From: a virus
Taxonomy: Duplodnaviria; Heunggongvirae; Uroviricota; Caudoviricetes
Direction: 5' to 3' (one strand)
DNA length: 30,976 nt
Virus record (IMG/VR): IMGVR_UViG_3300030444_000240
The first letter of the stretch is position 1. Each line of letters starts with the position of its first letter. The notes below the pieces were generated by a model. The model saw only the letters and a program-made list of their open reading frames with translations. It was not told the DNA's origin and searched no databases. The position numbers and the translations under genes were made by a program. Below, piece by piece: positions 3,268-17,534 of this stretch.

Positions 3268-3838
3268 TGGCATTCAGAATGAGTGAACAACCACGGACCA
3301 TAAAAATTTATAATCTGCTGGCCGGAACTAATGAATTTATTGGTGAAGGTGACGCATATATTCCACCTCATACAGGTCTGCCTGCAAACAGTACCGATAT
3401 TGCACNNNNNNNNNNNNNNNNNNNNNNNNNNNNNNNNNNNNNNNNNNNNNNNNNNNNNNNNNNNNNNNNNCATCTCGTTGAAGATCATCGGGGTAAAACG
3501 GTTTATGACGTGGCTTCCGGCGACGCGTTATTTATTTCTGAACTCGGACCGCTACCGGAAAATGTTACCTGGTTGTCGCCGGGAGGGGAATATCAGAAGT
3601 GGAACGGCACAGCCTGGGTGAAGGATACGGAAGCAGAAAAACTGTTCCGGATCCGGGAGGCAGAAGAAACAAAAAACAGCCTGATGCAGGTAGCCAGTGA
3701 GCATATTGCGCCACTTCAGGATGCTGTAGATCTGGAAATCGCAACGGAGGAAGAAATCTCGTTGCTGGAAGCATGGAAGAAGTATCGGGTGTTGCTGAAC
3801 CGTGTTGATACATCAACTGCACCTGATATTGAGTGGCC
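3141..3838. repeat. Direct repeat copy 1 (stf 3' end plus tfa), about 700 bp, nearly identical by eye to 27794-28482
   Basis: Aligned by eye: tattggtgctcatacgcact... through ...gatattga(g/a)tggcc, with scattered substitutions. Copy 1 contains the N gap. Confidence 0.8.
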
Positions 3839-13608: not shown

Positions 13609-14283
13609 TTAGGCTTTGATTTTGTATCTTCTTGGTTTTCCTGAGAAAATCACTGTACCAATTATAGAGCAATTACCGTTGATCTTAATGTAAGGTTCAG
13701 GCCAGTTTGGGTTTAATGCTTTGAGGTAACGCTGTGTTCCATCTTCTATCAACCGCTTGAAGGTGGTTTCGCCTGTATCGTGCATCAATGCAATAACGTC
13801 GTCACCGTGGCAGGCAGGGACTTCAGGATCAACAAAAATCATGTCTCCCGGGCGGTACTCATCAATCATTGAATCACCAATCACCCGCAAGATATAAGTC
13901 ATTTCGCCACAGGGTACAGGGCAGGGGTAAGTTTCTGCTGTGCTCAAATCAACCTCAGAATAGCCAACTTCTTTCCATGCTCCGGCCTGTACCCATGATA
14001 TGACAGGGACTAACGTTATTTGTTTGTTAGTGATTGAAACATCAGGTTTTTTTGTGATGTTCGTGGTCTGGTGTTCTTGATCAAGCCATCCGACAGGCAG
14101 GTCGAAACATTTTTCGATGTGCCGCGCCATGCTGTCACCGATATTTTTAGTAGCACCATCTCCCATAAACCTGCTGGTCTGGGTTGGCTCGCGATCAATC
14201 ATAGTGGCAAAGGAAGAATTCCCGCCAACACCATCTCTCAGTTTTCTGGCGTTAGACCGCCGGATGTCATGGATTGTTTTCAT
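13609..14283 (-). CDS. CI-like prophage repressor with S24 (LexA-like) autopeptidase domain
   Basis: 224 aa; C-terminal ILRVIGDSMIDEYRPGDMIFVD ... FKRL resembles the S24 Ser/Lys dyad region. Divergent from a Cro-like gene, with palindromic operators between them. Confidence 0.85.
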   Translation of the reverse strand: MKTIHDIRRSNARKLRDGVGGNSSFATMIDREPTQTSRFMGDGATKNIGDSMARHIEKCFDLPVGWLDQEHQTTNITKKPDVSITNKQITLVPVISWVQAGAWKEVGYSEVDLSTAETYPCPVPCGEMTYILRVIGDSMIDEYRPGDMIFVDPEVPACHGDDVIALMHDTGETTFKRLIEDGTQRYLKALNPNWPEPYIKINGNCSIIGTVIFSGKPRRYKIKA

Positions 14284-14605: not shown

Positions 14606-15169
14606 ATGAGGCTAACCGTGGGTAAGTATCACTGGAAAGTAGAAAAACAGCCTGAGTGGTACGTGAAAGCTGTCAGAAAAACTATCGCAGCGTTGCCGGG
14701 TGGTTACGCTGAAGCAGCTGACTGGCTGGATGTAACAGAGAACGCATTATTTAACCGCCTTCGTGCCGATGGCGATCAGATTTTCCCGCTGGGATGGGCA
14801 ATGGTTTTACAGCGCGCGGCTGGCACTCACTACATTGCGGATGCTGTCGCACAGTCTGCTGGTGGGGTGTTCGTATCGCTTCCTGAAATTGAGGAAGTAG
14901 AGAACGCCGATATAAACCAGCGCCTGCTGGAAGTCATCGAACAGATCGGGAATTACTCAAAGCAGATTCGTTCGGCAATCGAAGATGGGGTCGTGGAGCC
15001 ACACGAGCAGACAGCAATTAATGATGAGTTGTATCTGTCAATTTCGAAGCTCCAGGAACATGCAGCACTGGTCTACAAAATCTTTTGCGCTCCAGAAAAG
15101 AGTGACGCCCGCGAGTGTGCAGCTCCGGGCGTCGTGGCGTTTTGTGTCTGTGGAGAAACTAACGCATGA
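14606..15169 (+). CDS. Phage early regulatory protein (CII/YdaT-like position)
   Basis: 187-aa ORF following the cro-like gene; family assignment is uncertain. Confidence 0.45.
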   Translation: MRLTVGKYHWKVEKQPEWYVKAVRKTIAALPGGYAEAADWLDVTENALFNRLRADGDQIFPLGWAMVLQRAAGTHYIADAVAQSAGGVFVSLPEIEEVENADINQRLLEVIEQIGNYSKQIRSAIEDGVVEPHEQTAINDELYLSISKLQEHAALVYKIFCAPEKSDARECAAPGVVAFCVCGETNA

Positions 15170-16002
15170 ACAGTTTAACGGCAAATAACCGTTTGTCGCA
15201 ACAGCTGGTGGTCAGTGTCGCTGAACACCTGTTGTTACGGCATGAATGCAGATTACCAAATCTCCTGGCTGTAAGTAACCACAGAGAACTTTACCTGACT
15301 GTGGGGGGCGAGTTGTGCAGGAACTTAACCGCTGGTTTCGTGACGGAAGAGGACTTTATGTTCATGTTATTCGTTGGGAGCCAGAAACACAGCGCGTTAT
15401 CTATCTTCGCAAAGACTACCCGCATGAGTGCTTTAGTCCTTTGTGGAAATTCAGGCGTGATTTTGTTGAGTGTGAAGGACCACCAGCACATTGATTCTGC
15501 CATTCCGGGACGTTACACTGTTCAGGCACCTTATAAAGCGGGTGCCGGGATTGGCGTCCTGGAATTGATCAAGGCGATATATGACGCGCCAGCGTCTTTT
15601 TTATCGTCCGCATTTGCTCACATCAAAGTTATGGTGGGCTGGGCGGGGGCATCGAAAGATGCGCCGGTTTCCTTGATCACCGGTTACGCCAACCCCGTTC
15701 AGTTCACCACCAGCGAAATTGGCGTTTCCGGTGGTGGAAGTATTTCACCGATCAAGGAGGCTGCCATCATGGCTACTGTCCCAGCCCTCACTCGTCTGAA
15801 TGATGAAGACTTACATAAACTCAGTTATGTAACAACTGCACTACGTGCTCTGCGCAAGGTAACTCTTTCGGATCCGCAGGCACATCAGGTTCTGGTAGAA
15901 ACCCTTCTTAACTTGCAAGCTGAACGTATTCGTCTGGCGGATAAGGCTAATTTTCATATTCACCGTCTCCTGAATATCAGCGGAGGGCATCGTCATGCTT
16001 AA
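15166..16002 (+). CDS. Hypothetical early ORF, possibly a composite of several small genes or frameshifted
   Basis: A 278-aa ORF, but a protein-like alternative frame runs through 15309-15480 after a G6 tract (15303-15308), and there is an internal RBS-ATG at about 15769 (AAGGAGG ... ATGGCTACT). Confidence 0.3.
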   Translation: MNSLTANNRLSQQLVVSVAEHLLLRHECRLPNLLAVSNHRELYLTVGGELCRNLTAGFVTEEDFMFMLFVGSQKHSALSIFAKTTRMSALVLCGNSGVILLSVKDHQHIDSAIPGRYTVQAPYKAGAGIGVLELIKAIYDAPASFLSSAFAHIKVMVGWAGASKDAPVSLITGYANPVQFTTSEIGVSGGGSISPIKEAAIMATVPALTRLNDEDLHKLSYVTTALRALRKVTLSDPQAHQVLVETLLNLQAERIRLADKANFHIHRLLNISGGHRHA

Positions 16003-16231
16003 TCCGTTGATCCTCAATATTTGCCGTTTGCTTCAGCGTAAAAAAACATCAATTCCTACAGTTGGGCAGTGGTACACCACGCCTGCAGGGCATGTTCTAC
16101 GTGTTAGCCTGGTTGACCGTGAATGCCAGAAGGTGATTTGTGAACCGCTGGGCCGTAATTACCGCGTCAGTATGCCGCTTATAGCCTTTCGCTCCGGAAA
16201 AAACATGAAGCATCTCGGAGGTGCAGCATGA
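15995..16231 (+). CDS. Hypothetical small protein (78 aa)
   Basis: ORF translationally coupled to its neighbours in the early-right operon. Confidence 0.4.
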   Translation: MLNPLILNICRLLQRKKTSIPTVGQWYTTPAGHVLRVSLVDRECQKVICEPLGRNYRVSMPLIAFRSGKNMKHLGGAA

Positions 16232-17046
16232 GTATGGAGCTGATGGTTAAAGCGATGAAAATTCGAGTGGGTAATCCATTGCGAAAACTGGTTCTGATCA
16301 AGCTGGCTGATAATGCCAGCGATCAGGGTGAGTGCTGGCCCAGCTACCAGCATATTGCTGACCAGTGCGAAATTAGCAAACGTTCTGTGATGAATCATAT
16401 TGCGGCCCTTTGTGAGTCCGGGCTGGTAAAAAAAGTCACCCGGAAAGGTGAAAAAGGTAACTCAAGTAATATCTATCTCCTTCATCTGGATGGTGCAGGA
16501 GATTCACTAGGGGGTAGTGCAAATAATTCACTATCTGGTGCAGCAAATTCACCAGGTAGTGCAGGAGTTGCACCAGGGGGTAGTGCAGGAGATTCACCCA
16601 GAACCAGTCACTCTTTTGAACCAGTCAAAGAACCAGTCAATGAACCAATAGCTGTTGGTGCATCTGCTGATGAGTCTGTGCGAGTTCGTTCAAACCGACC
16701 GGAATACTCTCCGGAGTTTGAGCAGGCATGGCTGGCATACCCCAAACGTGCTGGTGGCAATTCAAAATCTGCAGCCTTCAAAGCCTGGAAAGCCCGTTTG
16801 AATGAGGGGGTAAAACCCGAAACCATGCTGGAAGGTGTGAAACGCTACGCGGGCTGGGTATCTGCGATGGGTAACAGCGGCACACAATTTGTGAAACAGG
16901 CTGTCACGTTCTTTGGCCCGGATCGTCATTTCGAAGAGTCCTGGGAAGTTCCTGCGGTATCTGCAGCCAGACGCGAGGACCCGTACTTCAAAGCCAGTTA
17001 CGACAACGTGGACTACAGCCAGATCCCGGCAGGATTCAGGGGGTGA
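16228..17046 (+). CDS. Replication initiator-like protein (N-terminal winged-helix/HTH) with embedded iteron-like repeats
   Basis: N-terminal LVLIKLADNASDQGECWPSYQHIADQCEISKRSVMNHIAAL resembles replication-protein HTH domains; a central low-complexity linker is encoded by tandem DNA repeats. Confidence 0.6.
   Translation: MSMELMVKAMKIRVGNPLRKLVLIKLADNASDQGECWPSYQHIADQCEISKRSVMNHIAALCESGLVKKVTRKGEKGNSSNIYLLHLDGAGDSLGGSANNSLSGAANSPGSAGVAPGGSAGDSPRTSHSFEPVKEPVNEPIAVGASADESVRVRSNRPEYSPEFEQAWLAYPKRAGGNSKSAAFKAWKARLNEGVKPETMLEGVKRYAGWVSAMGNSGTQFVKQAVTFFGPDRHFEESWEVPAVSAARREDPYFKASYDNVDYSQIPAGFRG
16491..16598. repeat. Iteron-like tandem direct repeats (candidate origin of replication)
   Basis: About five imperfect copies of GGT(A)GTGCA-N-ATTCAC(T/C) within the initiator gene, analogous to ori lying inside lambda O. 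Confidence 0.45.
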
Positions 17047-17534
17047 TCATGAGTCTGTTAAATGACGTTCAGAAATTCATTGAAGCCCATCCGGGGTGTA
17101 CTTCCGGAGACATTGCGGATGCTTTTGCAGGTTACTCACGGCAGCGCGTTCTGCAGTCAGCAAGCAAGTTACGTCAGAGTGGGCGTGTGGCTCACCGTTG
17201 TGAAGGAGATACACGCAGACATTTCCCACGCCTGACTGAGAGAGCGCAGGAGCCGGAACCACAACCAGTTCGTGAAACCAGACCTGTGCGCAATTTCTAT
17301 GTCGGCACTAACGATCCCCGGGTGATTTTGTTGACCCGCCAGGCGGAAGAACTGGAGTCCAGGGGCTTATACCGTCGTGCTGCAACGGTGTGGATGGCGG
17401 CATTCCGTGAAAGCCACTCCCAGCCAGAACGAAACAATTTTCTGGCGCATCGTGAGCGGTGCTTACGGAAAAGCAGCAAGCGCGCTGCATCGGGTGAAGA
17501 GTGGTATCTGTCAGGGAATTACGTGGGGGCTTAA
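17043..17534 (+). CDS. Hypothetical protein; C-terminal region resembles PerC/ANR-type regulators
   Basis: 163 aa; ELESRGLYRRAATVWMAAF resembles the PerC-family core as recalled. Low confidence. Confidence 0.4.
   Translation: MIMSLLNDVQKFIEAHPGCTSGDIADAFAGYSRQRVLQSASKLRQSGRVAHRCEGDTRRHFPRLTERAQEPEPQPVRETRPVRNFYVGTNDPRVILLTRQAEELESRGLYRRAATVWMAAFRESHSQPERNNFLAHRERCLRKSSKRAASGEEWYLSGNYVGA

What the first reader, a model, noticed from the sequence alone, without database searches (positions are those of the whole stretch)
16491..16598. Iteron-like direct repeats inside the replication initiator gene
Five imperfect tandem copies of a GGT(A)GTGCA...ATTCAC unit encode a low-complexity Gly/Ser/Ala linker, resembling the arrangement of lambda ori inside the O gene. 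This is the likely origin of replication and initiator binding site.
Basis: partly seen in the sequence, partly recalled or inferred. Interest (0 to 1): 0.4.

Follow-up and report, generated by a model that had tools for sequence, protein, structure and literature searches.

The report
Phage replication origin inside initiator gene
The five repeats are real and are almost certainly the binding sites of this prophage's own replication initiator, forming a lambda-style origin of replication inside the initiator gene, in a widespread initiator family whose origin I found described in no paper I could search.

Summary
Observation confirmed. Five copies of GTGCA-N5-T(T/G)CAC lie at 16493-16597, spaced 24/21/21/24 bp. 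They occur nowhere else in the window (6 strand-matches against 0.21 expected).

Interpretation supported. The repeats sit in the disordered Gly/Ser/Ala linker of a 272-aa initiator (16228-17046). This has an N-terminal winged-helix domain (Pfam HTH_36), a linker, and a small helical C-domain.

Comparative evidence shows the repeats are DNA signals, not a peptide repeat.
- All 80 homologous genes from 80 gammaproteobacterial species carry 3-7 such dyad repeats at the same place and spacing (75 of 80 carry four or more).
- Repeat sequence co-varies with the initiator's recognition helix and wing (Mantel p~0.001).
- In many relatives single repeats lie in another reading frame.
- Copy number varies from 1 to 9 between otherwise near-identical genes.

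These are conserved at synonymous sites and across reading frames whatever the repeat type. They stand where lambda has its AT-rich region.

The protein is not a lambda O (Phage_rep_O) family member, and no helicase loader gene follows it. No binding or origin assay exists. This is a new variant of a known kind, of moderate interest.

The parts
16228..17046 (+). Replication initiator gene (272 aa). It has no adjacent helicase or helicase-loader gene ('solo' initiator).
   Evidence: ORF. PHROG 270 'replication initiation protein' at 1.4e-88. Pfam HTH_36 at 1.8e-11. 98-99% nucleotide identity to the replication protein genes of SfV, mEp460, cdtI, 2H10 and Stx2a_WGPS2. The neighbouring genes are Ash-family, PerC-like, Dam, LexA-like and RusA.
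16228..16491 (+). Coding region of the N-terminal winged-helix DNA-binding domain (aa 1-88). The recognition helix is about aa 49-61 (ISKRSVMNHIAAL) and the wing about aa 66-85.
   Evidence: AlphaFold2 model with pLDDT 78-91: helices 3-11, 17-29, 40-47 and 51-64, and a beta hairpin at 67-85. Foldseek hits are winged-helix regulators and the DnaD N-domain, all with E>0.01. aa 1-48 are nearly invariant in the family, while aa 49-88 vary with the iteron class.
16447..16488 (.). Least stable duplex segment of the gene, immediately left of iteron 1. This is one candidate for the AT-rich element, but the property is not conserved in GC-rich relatives.
   Evidence: Nearest-neighbour dG of 30-mers is -32.5 here, against a regional mean of -41.8 +/- 2.9. 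The equivalent Pseudomonas-type sequences are not AT-rich (listing).
16493..16507 (+). Iteron 1, GTGCAGGAGATTCAC
16517..16531 (+). Iteron 2, GTGCAAATAATTCAC
16538..16552 (+). Iteron 3, GTGCAGCAAATTCAC
16559..16573 (+). Iteron 4, GTGCAGGAGTTGCAC (perfect 5-N5-5 palindrome)
   Evidence: (matches on both strands)
16583..16597 (+). Iteron 5, GTGCAGGAGATTCAC. In the family the last iteron ends 2 bp before the conserved core in nearly all loci (L071 is 1 bp out of register).
16598..16651 (+). Conserved origin core: CC + AGAACCAGTCAC TCTTT TGAACCAGTCAA AGAACCAGTCAA TGAACCAATAG. There are three exact GAACCAGTCA words at 16601, 16618 and 16630, and a degenerate fourth at 16642. It is a local AT-rich island relative to its flanks.
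   Evidence: Searches show the repeats. The first word is read as R-T-S-H and the others as E-P-V, so the words lie in two frames. The block is about 90% conserved at the DNA level in phages of six genera. In 50 genome loci chosen by protein similarity only, codon identity is 95-100%, against 55% for invariant N-domain residues. The same words are read in other frames in Shewanella, Parashewanella, Aliivibrio and Avibacterium. Core GC is 0.40 against 0.53 downstream, and 0.45 against 0.62 in GC-rich hosts.
16492..16695 (+). Coding region of the disordered linker (aa 89-156) that carries the iterons and the core.
   Evidence: pLDDT is 30-48 for residues 95-156. All length variation among proteins at least 97% identical (242-302 aa) falls here.
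16705..16872 (+). C-terminal three-helix domain (aa 160-215), presumed to be the helicase or primosome recruitment module.
   Evidence: Helices at 162-170, 180-193 and 197-214, with pLDDT 58-77. PHROG 1701 'DnaD-like helicase loader' and PHROG 9327 'primosomal protein' match aa 147-249. In relatives, other C-domains are each paired with a different partner gene: lambda-P-like, DnaB-like helicase, or primase-helicase.
17017..17043 (+). Extreme C-terminal tail SQIPAGFRG, 8/9 identical to the extreme C-terminus of E. coli DnaT (SQIPPGFRG).
   Evidence: The tail is confined to enterobacterial members of the family.

Best explanation
Positions 16493-16651 are the origin of replication of this lambdoid prophage, embedded in the gene of its own initiator.

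Proposed mechanism:
1. After derepression, the initiator is made from the early rightward operon.
2. Dimers of its N-terminal winged-helix domain bind the five dyad-symmetric iterons. The core is GTGCA-N5-T(T/G)CAC and the extended form is T-R-GTGCA-N5-TKCAC-Y-A. The sites are spaced about two helical turns apart, so the dimers lie on one face of the DNA and build an O-some-like nucleoprotein complex.
3. This complex destabilises the adjacent conserved core (GAACCAGTCA words, 16601-16651), which plays the part of lambda's AT-rich region.
4. The C-terminal domain and tail then bring in the host helicase machinery directly, because no phage loader or helicase is encoded.

The peptide encoded by the iterons is only a tolerant disordered linker between the two domains.

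What is shown:
- the repeats exist and are unique to this site in the window;
- they are under DNA-level rather than protein-level constraint in the family;
- they co-vary with the DNA-binding domain;
- the adjacent core is under DNA-level constraint.

What is inferred:
- physical binding of the initiator;
- unwinding at the core;
- origin activity;
- the route by which the helicase is recruited.
For: 1. Five sites lie in 105 bp and none elsewhere in the window.
2. The gene is a phage replication initiator with an N-terminal winged helix.
3. Ten further phage homologues with 27-88% aa identity (plus cdtI, about 99% identical) all carry 2-8 dyad repeats starting about 265 nt into the gene, mostly at 21-24 bp spacing. 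Their arm sequences differ, for example GGGCA..TGCCC, TGCCA..TGGCA and GTGAC..GTCAC.
4. In an unbiased set of 80 genome loci chosen only by N-domain protein similarity, 80/80 have at least 3 repeats and 75/80 at least 4. For the first 40 loci, the real regions give 4-7 copies, while two kinds of control region from the same loci give at most 3.
5. N-domain identity against iteron-arm mismatch gives Spearman -0.55 and Mantel p~0.001. Pairs with at least 90% N-domain identity differ by 0.09 arm positions, and pairs below 80% differ by 5.5-6.2 of 10.
6. Spacings of 22+23 bp place single iterons in another reading frame in 30 of 45 well-registered loci. These include Pseudomonas prophages with the same GTGCA..TGCAC arms as the window.
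7. Copy number ranges from 1 to 9 in proteins at least 97% identical. The cdtI phage has 8 copies through a 66-bp duplication.
8. Within the window, all 7 Ala codons of the linker are GCA, against a 32% share in neighbouring genes.
9. The right-hand core is conserved at synonymous sites and across reading frames.
10. The anatomy parallels lambda and P22. Lambda's iterons are spaced 20/24/23 bp inside O and are followed by repeated ACAAAAGA-type words; P22 has its origin inside gene 18, followed by the same words (PMC7466680).
11. The iteron-encoded segment is predicted to be disordered.
Against: - No experiment on this initiator family was found. The Stx-phage 'Eru' papers state that nothing is known about replication proteins of these types (PMC8951638).
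- The right flank is not strongly AT-rich: dG of 30-mers is about -38 against a mean of -41.8. The least stable DNA lies to the left of the iterons.
- No DnaA box and no promoter-like site is present in the region.
- The protein does not match Pfam Phage_rep_O, and profile comparison with lambda O is not significant. The analogy to oriLambda therefore rests on architecture.
- The window's own five units are all in one reading frame, so the frame-independence argument comes from relatives.
- The IMG/VR sample was selected by the core motif. This was corrected by the later protein-selected sample.
Confidence: 0.85

Rival explanations
1. The repeats are merely a low-complexity Gly/Ser/Ala linker that expanded by slippage or unequal recombination. 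On this view the DNA repeat is a by-product of a peptide repeat and has no cis-acting role.
For: The segment encodes a disordered linker. Unit number varies between near-identical genes, as expected for slippage-prone repeats. All five window units are in one reading frame.
Against: Within units, the arms are conserved and the 5-bp spacer and inter-unit bases vary. This is the reverse of what recent duplication would give. In relatives the same DNA unit is read in different frames and gives unrelated peptides. The arms co-vary with the DNA-binding domain. The units are dyad-symmetric and keep 21-24 bp phasing in 80 species.
Confidence: 0.03
2. The repeats are initiator-binding sites, but they serve autoregulation, copy control, handcuffing or exclusion of related phages rather than origin firing. 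The true origin would lie elsewhere.
For: Iterons of plasmids also act in copy control. Cloned lambda iterons inhibit homologous phages (PMC3349717, abstract seen). No strong AT-rich DUE and no DnaA box lies next to the repeats.
Against: No other cluster of these sites exists in the 31-kb window. The sites lie about 265 nt inside the gene and far from its promoter, so they make a poor operator. They are always fused to a second DNA-level conserved element. The architecture matches the experimentally proven origins of lambda and P22.
Confidence: 0.07
3. The conserved 16598-16651 block is not an origin element but a recombination 'linker'. On this view it is a shared homology patch at the boundary between the N-terminal (specificity) and C-terminal (recruitment) modules, which lets lambdoid phages shuffle these modules.
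For: The same N-domain and iteron class is joined to at least four different C-domains exactly at this block, and vice versa. The block is identical at synonymous sites across very different hosts.
Against: Selection for evolvability is weak compared with direct function. The block consists of phased direct repeats of one 10-mer whose number also varies from 2 to 4. It always abuts the last iteron at a fixed 2-bp distance. It is a local AT-rich island in GC-rich hosts. Lambda and P22 have an analogous repeated word in the region known to be needed for unwinding. The two roles are not mutually exclusive.
Confidence: 0.05

Closest known systems
oriLambda inside gene O of phage lambda, and the P22, phi80, 82 and Stx-phage variants
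   Same: - The origin lies in the middle of the initiator gene.
- It has 4-6 dyad-symmetric iterons at 20-24 bp spacing, directly after the N-terminal DNA-binding domain.
- Iteron sequence is specific to the N-domain.
- Iteron number varies between relatives and adds or removes linker residues.
- A conserved repeated word follows on the right.
- The C-terminal part of the initiator is exchangeable and matched to the helicase partner (PMC7466680).
   Different: - The initiator matches Pfam HTH_36, not Phage_rep_O. No significant sequence or profile similarity to lambda O or P22 gp18 was found.
- The sites have 5-N5-5 arms (7-N5-7 in extended form), whereas lambda has 18-bp sites.
- The right-hand element is GAACCAGTCA words of about 58% AT instead of an A-tract-rich region.
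- No P, DnaC-like or DnaB-like gene follows in the window.
'Eru6' replication region of Shiga-toxin phages (representative Stx2a_WGPS2; BMC Genomics 2022, PMC8951638)
   Same: The window gene is 98.5% identical in DNA to the Stx2a_WGPS2 gene. It has the same neighbours (an Ash-family gene upstream) and the same HTH_36 protein.
   Different: That paper classifies the gene region only. It reports no iterons and no origin, and says nothing is known about how Eru phages replicate.
RepA_N plasmid initiators of Firmicutes (pAD1, pSK41) and DnaD-type winged-helix proteins
   Same: From my own knowledge, RepA_N replicons also carry their iteron origin inside the central, variable part of repA. They have a DnaD-N-like winged-helix N-domain and a host-specific C-domain. 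Here Pfam DnaD_N gives a sub-threshold hit (24.3 bits against a cut-off of 27). Foldseek lists the DnaD N-domain (2v79) and 4pql among weak hits.
   Different: There is no significant sequence relationship. The host range is different, and the context is a phage rather than a plasmid.
DopC/DopE of Cellvibrionales and Oceanospirillales (Brezellec et al. 2017, PMC5509034)
   Same: DopC is described as an O-like protein with an HTH_36 N-domain and a DnaT C-terminal motif. That is the same domain logic as the window protein.
   Different: DopC is a domesticated chromosomal gene next to a lambda-P-like gene. It is reported to lack iterons and not to be an origin. This fits the iterons being a cis-acting phage feature rather than a requirement of the protein.

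Membership tests
Lambda-type intragenic iteron origin (architecture class) | Three or more direct repeats with internal dyad symmetry located inside the initiator gene, downstream of its DNA-binding domain. | tested here: met
   Five GTGCA-N5-TKCAC sites at 16493-16597, starting at codon 89 right after the winged helix.
Lambda-type intragenic iteron origin (architecture class) | Repeat spacing near two helical turns. | tested here: met
   Spacing is 24/21/21/24 bp in the window. In relatives, 21-24 bp accounts for 281 of 310 spacings. Lambda has 20/24/23 bp.
Lambda-type intragenic iteron origin (architecture class) | Iteron sequence is specific to, and co-varies with, the initiator's N-terminal domain. 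| tested here: met
   Spearman -0.55 and Mantel p~0.001 over 92 loci, with 17 arm classes.
Lambda-type intragenic iteron origin (architecture class) | An AT-rich DNA-unwinding region adjacent to the iterons. | tested here: inconclusive
   The right flank has GC of about 0.42 and a 30-mer dG of about -38, against a mean of -41.8. The least stable DNA is on the left flank. The right flank is a conserved, relatively AT-rich island in the family.
Lambda-type intragenic iteron origin (architecture class) | The initiator binds the repeats, and the fragment supports replication. | not testable with these tools
   No binding or origin assay for this family was found in the searchable literature.
Lambda-type intragenic iteron origin (architecture class) | A helicase loader or helicase gene (P, DnaC-like or DnaB-like) immediately downstream of the initiator. 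| tested here: not met
   The next genes are PerC-like, Dam, LexA-like and RusA. Relatives with other C-domains do have P-like, helicase or primase-helicase genes.
Lambda O protein family (Pfam Phage_rep_O, PF04492) | A significant match to the Phage_rep_O profile. | tested here: not met
   The window protein hits HTH_36 and not Phage_rep_O. Lambda O and P22 gp18 hit Phage_rep_O at 1e-36 to 1e-38. hhalign against lambda O gives probability 6%, and BLASTP against P22 gp18 gives E>2.
HTH_36 (PF13730) winged-helix proteins | A match above the Pfam gathering score. | tested here: met
   44.1 bits against a cut-off of 25, over aa 17-67. All listed homologues carry PF13730.
DnaD_N / RepA_N-type initiators | A match to DnaD_N (PF21984) above threshold, or a convincing fold match. 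| tested here: inconclusive
   24.3 bits against a cut-off of 27. Some homologues have PF21984 precomputed. Foldseek hits to 2v79 and 4pql have E about 0.08-0.12.
Plasmid iteron initiators of the RepA/RepE/Pi type (Rep_3, WH1-WH2) | Tandem WH1-WH2 domains, or a Rep_3 profile match. | tested here: not met
   No such Pfam or NCBIfam hit was found. The model has a single winged helix.
DnaT (primosomal protein I; PF17948) | The DnaT DNA-binding three-helix domain. | tested here: inconclusive
   There is no Pfam DnaT hit, and hhalign gives probability 0.2%. However, the model has a three-helix C-domain, and the last 9 residues are 8/9 identical to the DnaT C-terminus.
Eru6 replication region of Stx phages | Near-identity to the Stx2a_WGPS2 region (AP012537). 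| tested here: met
   98.5% nucleotide identity over the whole gene (H22). Eru6 is defined in PMC8951638.

The most novel reading that the evidence does not exclude
The GAACCAGTCA word array is a previously unrecognised, host-independent origin core shared by a whole family of HTH_36 initiators, from Pasteurellaceae to Pseudomonas. It would be read, as double- or single-stranded DNA, by the invariant half of the initiator (aa 1-48) or by a conserved host replication factor.

In addition, 'solo' members such as this one would load the host helicase by mimicking a host primosome protein. The evidence for this is the DnaT-identical SQIPxGFRG tail in enterobacterial phages and other short tails in other hosts. 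If true, this would define a third way for lambdoid phages to recruit DnaB, without a P-type loader or a helicase of their own.
Probability: 0.25. Interest if true: 0.65.

Novelty: new variant of a known kind. Interest (0 to 1): 0.45.

Why it matters
This initiator type is very common. Part of the module is found in 3149 of 5426 complete E. coli genomes. About 5600 protein clusters are homologous to it. It occurs in SfV, ST64B, cdtI and several Shiga-toxin phage types (Eru5/Eru6). Yet RefSeq labels it only 'helix-turn-helix domain-containing protein', and the Stx-phage literature states that its replication is not understood.

Locating the origin, the specificity determinants (recognition helix and wing against iteron arms) and a universal core gives directly testable targets. 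These bear on Stx-phage replication, which drives toxin production. They also bear on replication-based incompatibility or exclusion between co-resident prophages, and on building origin/initiator pairs with orthogonal specificities.

It is also a clean natural example of a cis-acting DNA signal overprinted on a disordered protein linker, with the same DNA words read in different reading frames.

Tried and rejected
- **Sequence search of the PDB.** Searches with the protein and with a 36-sequence profile gave only weak generic winged-helix hits.
- **NCBIfam.** No family was found, and nothing for the C-terminal half.
- **Profile comparison with lambda O.** Not significant; the only 'hit' fell in lambda's own iteron-encoded linker.
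- **Profile comparison with E. coli DnaT.** The domain is not significant and only the 9-residue tail matches. I therefore do not call the C-domain a DnaT domain.
- **Foldseek against the PDB with the full model.** Only generic winged-helix matches, all with E>0.01, and the C-domain was not resolved.
- **Literature.** Searches for iterons or an origin in this family, for 'initiator-solo', for HTH_36 with iterons, and for the literal motif strings found no description. The review by Weigel and Seitz (2006), which may discuss such modules, is not held. pIGMS31 was checked and is irrelevant. The function of the DnaT tail is not described in PMC4132743 or PMC13377028.
- **Other sequence features.** No DnaA boxes and no promoter-like sites lie in the origin region.
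- **Classic AT-rich DUE to the right of the iterons.** Not found. The least stable DNA is on the left flank, and that property is not conserved in GC-rich relatives.
- **Circularity of the first sample.** The IMG/VR sample was selected with the core motif itself, so it cannot show core conservation. That analysis was repeated on a protein-selected genome sample.
- **C-terminal clustering.** Single-linkage clustering over-merged the classes, so only qualitative statements about C-domain classes are made.
Full report
**Setting.** The window is the early-right region of a lambdoid E. coli prophage. In order, it carries these genes:
- an S24-type cI repressor at 13609-14283 (- strand);
- a CII/CP76-like gene at 14606-15169;
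- an Ash-family gene at 15166-16002;
- a small ORF at 15995-16231;
- the gene in question at 16228-17046;
- a PerC-like gene, Dam, a LexA-like gene and RusA.

A 3.9-kb stretch around the gene is 99.9% identical to an E. coli chromosome, and parts of it occur in 3149 of 5426 complete E. coli genomes. There the gene is annotated only as 'helix-turn-helix domain-containing protein'. The gene itself is 98-99% identical to the 'replication protein' genes of phages 1720a-02, 2H10, cdtI, mEp460, SfV and several Stx2 phages. These include Stx2a_WGPS2, the type example of the 'Eru6' replication region (PMC8951638).

GTGCANNNNNTKCAC matches at 16493, 16517, 16538, 16559 and 16583. That gives 6 strand-matches against 0.21 expected, and there are none elsewhere in the window. 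The spacing is 24/21/21/24 bp. Flanking positions are also biased, giving a 19-bp near-palindrome T-R-GTGCA-N5-TKCAC-Y-A. The units encode aa 89-123, a Gly/Ser/Ala-rich stretch.

**What the protein is.**
- PHROGs place it in 'replication initiation protein' families. The N-half alone matches 'O-like' initiators. The C-half alone matches 'replication protein', 'DnaD-like helicase loader' and 'primosomal protein' families.
- Pfam finds HTH_36 at aa 17-67.
- An AlphaFold2 model built from 36 homologues gives a confident winged helix for aa 1-88. Residues 95-156 are disordered. Helices at 162-214 form a moderately confident three-helix domain, and the tail is disordered.

The iterons and the element to their right therefore lie exactly in the disordered linker between two domains.

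**Are the repeats DNA signals or a peptide repeat?** This is the key question, and relatives answer it.

1. Ten further phage homologues found by tblastn (27-88% aa identity; hosts Salmonella, Aeromonas, Vibrio, Klebsiella, Pectobacterium and E. coli), plus cdtI (about 99% identical), all carry 2-8 dyad repeats. These begin about 265 nt into the gene, mostly at 21-24 bp spacing, but the arm sequences differ. Examples are GGGCA-N5-TGCCC, TGCCA-N5-TGGCA, GTGAC-N5-GTCAC and TAGCA-N5-TGACA.

2. I scanned one genome per species using only conserved peptide patterns of the N-domain. This returned 80 loci from Enterobacterales, Pseudomonas, Aeromonas, Shewanella, Marinomonas, Aliivibrio, Xenorhabdus, Pasteurellaceae and others.
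   - A de novo search found at least 3 phased repeats right after the N-domain in 80/80 loci, and at least 4 in 75/80.
   - For the first 40 loci, control regions from the same loci gave at most 3 copies, against 4-7 in the real regions.

3. Across 92 loci, N-domain identity and iteron-arm mismatch are strongly anticorrelated (Spearman -0.55, Mantel p~0.001). The first 48 residues are almost invariant. The recognition helix and wing (aa 49-88) change with the arm class.

4. In 30 of 45 well-registered loci, one or more iterons are displaced by 22+23 bp. The same DNA unit is then translated in another frame into an unrelated peptide. This includes Pseudomonas prophages whose arms are the same GTGCA..TGCAC as in the window.

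5. Among proteins at least 97% identical to the window protein, lengths run from 242 to 302 aa. All of the difference is in the number of iteron units (1-9) and of the 12-bp EPV(K/N) unit. The cdtI phage has eight iterons through a 66-bp duplication.

6. Within the window, all seven Ala codons of the linker are GCA, against 32% in neighbouring genes. The units are not independent, so this is only supportive.

Together these results exclude a protein-level explanation. They are what is expected of binding sites for the adjacent DNA-binding domain.

Directly after iteron 5 comes CC-AGAACCAGTCAC-TCTTT-TGAACCAGTCAA-AGAACCAGTCAA-TGAACCAATAG (16598-16651).
- The first GAACCAGTCA is read as R-T-S-H and the next two as E-P-V, so the word already sits in two frames in the window.
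- The block is about 90% identical at the DNA level among phages whose iterons, C-domains and hosts differ.
- In the protein-selected genome sample, 50 loci that keep the peptide motif use the codons CCC AGA ACC AGT CAC TCT TTT GAA CCA GTC at 95-100% identity. Invariant residues of the N-domain show a mean top-codon share of only 0.55 (Mann-Whitney p=1.7e-5).
- Most loci without the peptide motif still have the DNA words. Many are base variants in the same frame. In Shewanella, Parashewanella, Aliivibrio and Avibacterium the words are read in other frames.
- The 50-nt core has GC 0.40 against 0.53 in the next 300 nt, and 0.45 against 0.62 in GC-rich hosts.
- In nearly all loci the last iteron ends 2 bp before this core.

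Lambda and P22 belong to the different Phage_rep_O family. They have an analogous pair of ACAAAAGA-type words immediately to the right of their iterons. I therefore read the core as the functional counterpart of lambda's AT-rich region. It would be the place where the duplex opens or the helicase enters, and is possibly read as a specific sequence. This is inference. A classic strongly AT-rich DUE is absent. The least stable DNA of the gene lies left of the iterons at 16447-16488, but that property is not conserved in GC-rich relatives.

**Mechanism proposed.**
1. Dimers of the winged-helix domain bind the five sites on one face of the helix.
2. They assemble an O-some-like complex.
3. This complex opens the adjacent core.
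4. The C-terminal module recruits the helicase.

The C-terminal part is modular in the family and matches the partner gene:
- one C-domain type is followed by a lambda-P-like gene (Klebsiella phage RothD);
- another is followed by a helicase gene (annotated 'putative helicase') (ZF40);
- another is followed by a primase-helicase (Stx2a_F451, Min27; 'Eru5');
- the window type is followed by no replication gene at all.

The window type ends in SQIPAGFRG, which is 8/9 identical to the extreme C-terminus of E. coli DnaT. This tail is restricted to enterobacterial members, and other hosts' members end in other short tails. A published HHpred analysis reported an HTH_36 N-domain in lambda O. It also reported an 'HTH_36 + DnaT C-terminal motif' architecture in the domesticated O-like protein DopC, which lacks iterons (PMC5509034). 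I could not confirm a DnaT-domain relationship with my own profile tools, so direct engagement of host primosome components remains a hypothesis.

**Comparison with what is known.**
- In architecture this is an oriLambda-type origin.
- In membership it is not a lambda O (Phage_rep_O) protein. It belongs to HTH_36, with sub-threshold DnaD_N similarity.
- It recalls RepA_N plasmids, which from my own knowledge also hide their iterons inside repA.
- The region equals 'Eru6' of the Stx-phage classification. Its authors report no origin and state that replication of Eru phages is unknown.
- I found no paper in the searchable library that describes these iterons or the core. An older review that might do so is not held, so prior description cannot be excluded.

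**Verdict.** It is a new variant of a well-known kind. That a lambdoid initiator gene contains its origin is ordinary. It is still of moderate interest for three reasons. The family is very widespread and experimentally untouched. The comparative data define specificity classes. And a universal, frame-independent core element and a loader-less design raise concrete, testable questions.

Noticed in passing
window 16598-16651: Three exact GAACCAGTCA words and one degenerate copy lie directly after the last iteron. They are conserved at synonymous sites and across reading frames throughout the initiator family, whatever the iteron class or host. This is probably the origin core, the counterpart of lambda's AT-rich region.
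   Followed up: yes
window 17017-17043: The initiator ends in SQIPAGFRG, 8/9 identical to the extreme C-terminus of E. coli DnaT (SQIPPGFRG). The tail is found only in enterobacterial members. Members from other hosts end in short tails, many of them acidic with an aromatic or hydrophobic last residue (..EDPLI, ..NEYL, ..SEDF, ..EDFI, ..DCNW). This suggests host-specific docking motifs. The partner is unknown.
   Followed up: partly
window 16492-16651; proteins P0001-P0042; L001 3001-3885: Near-identical copies of this gene in E. coli, Shigella and Salmonella differ only in the number of iteron units (1-9) and of the 12-bp EPV(K/N) unit (2-4). One variant (P0039, 247 aa) has lost the last iterons and the whole core, so it is probably a dead origin in a defective prophage.
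   Followed up: partly
window 16228-17046 versus L005, L006, L009, L010, L016, L025: The N-domain-plus-origin module is joined to at least four or five unrelated C-terminal domains exactly at the conserved core. Each C-domain type is paired with a different downstream partner: lambda-P-like, a helicase gene (annotated 'putative helicase'), primase-helicase, or none.
   Followed up: partly
window 16447-16488: The least stable duplex of the gene (30-mer dG -32.5 against a mean of -41.8) lies immediately left of the iterons, in the sequence coding for the wing of the DNA-binding domain. It is not AT-rich in GC-rich relatives.
   Followed up: partly
window 15995-16231, 16228-17046 and 17043-17534: Successive genes overlap by 4 bases (…GCATGA… at 16228-16231 and GTGA at 17043-17046). 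This suggests translational coupling of the small phrog_1153 ORF, the initiator and the PerC-like gene.
   Followed up: no
window 3406 onward: A run of N (a masked or unknown stretch) begins at 3406. Its extent and context were not examined.
   Followed up: no
L135 620-650 (lambda) and L216 1425-1460 (P22): Lambda and P22 share repeated ACAAAAGA(C/A)A words at 15-16 bp spacing to the right of their different iterons. This mirrors the GAACCAGTCA words of the HTH_36 family and hints that 'AT-rich regions' of lambdoid origins carry sequence-specific words.
   Followed up: partly
annotations (E. coli chromosomes): RefSeq labels the initiator only as 'helix-turn-helix domain-containing protein', and no rep_origin is listed among the annotated features under the E. 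coli matches. Neighbouring genes carry K-12 cryptic-prophage names (ymfL, yfdN). From memory, K-12 yfdO ('defective replication protein O') may be a remnant of this family. This was not checked.
   Followed up: no
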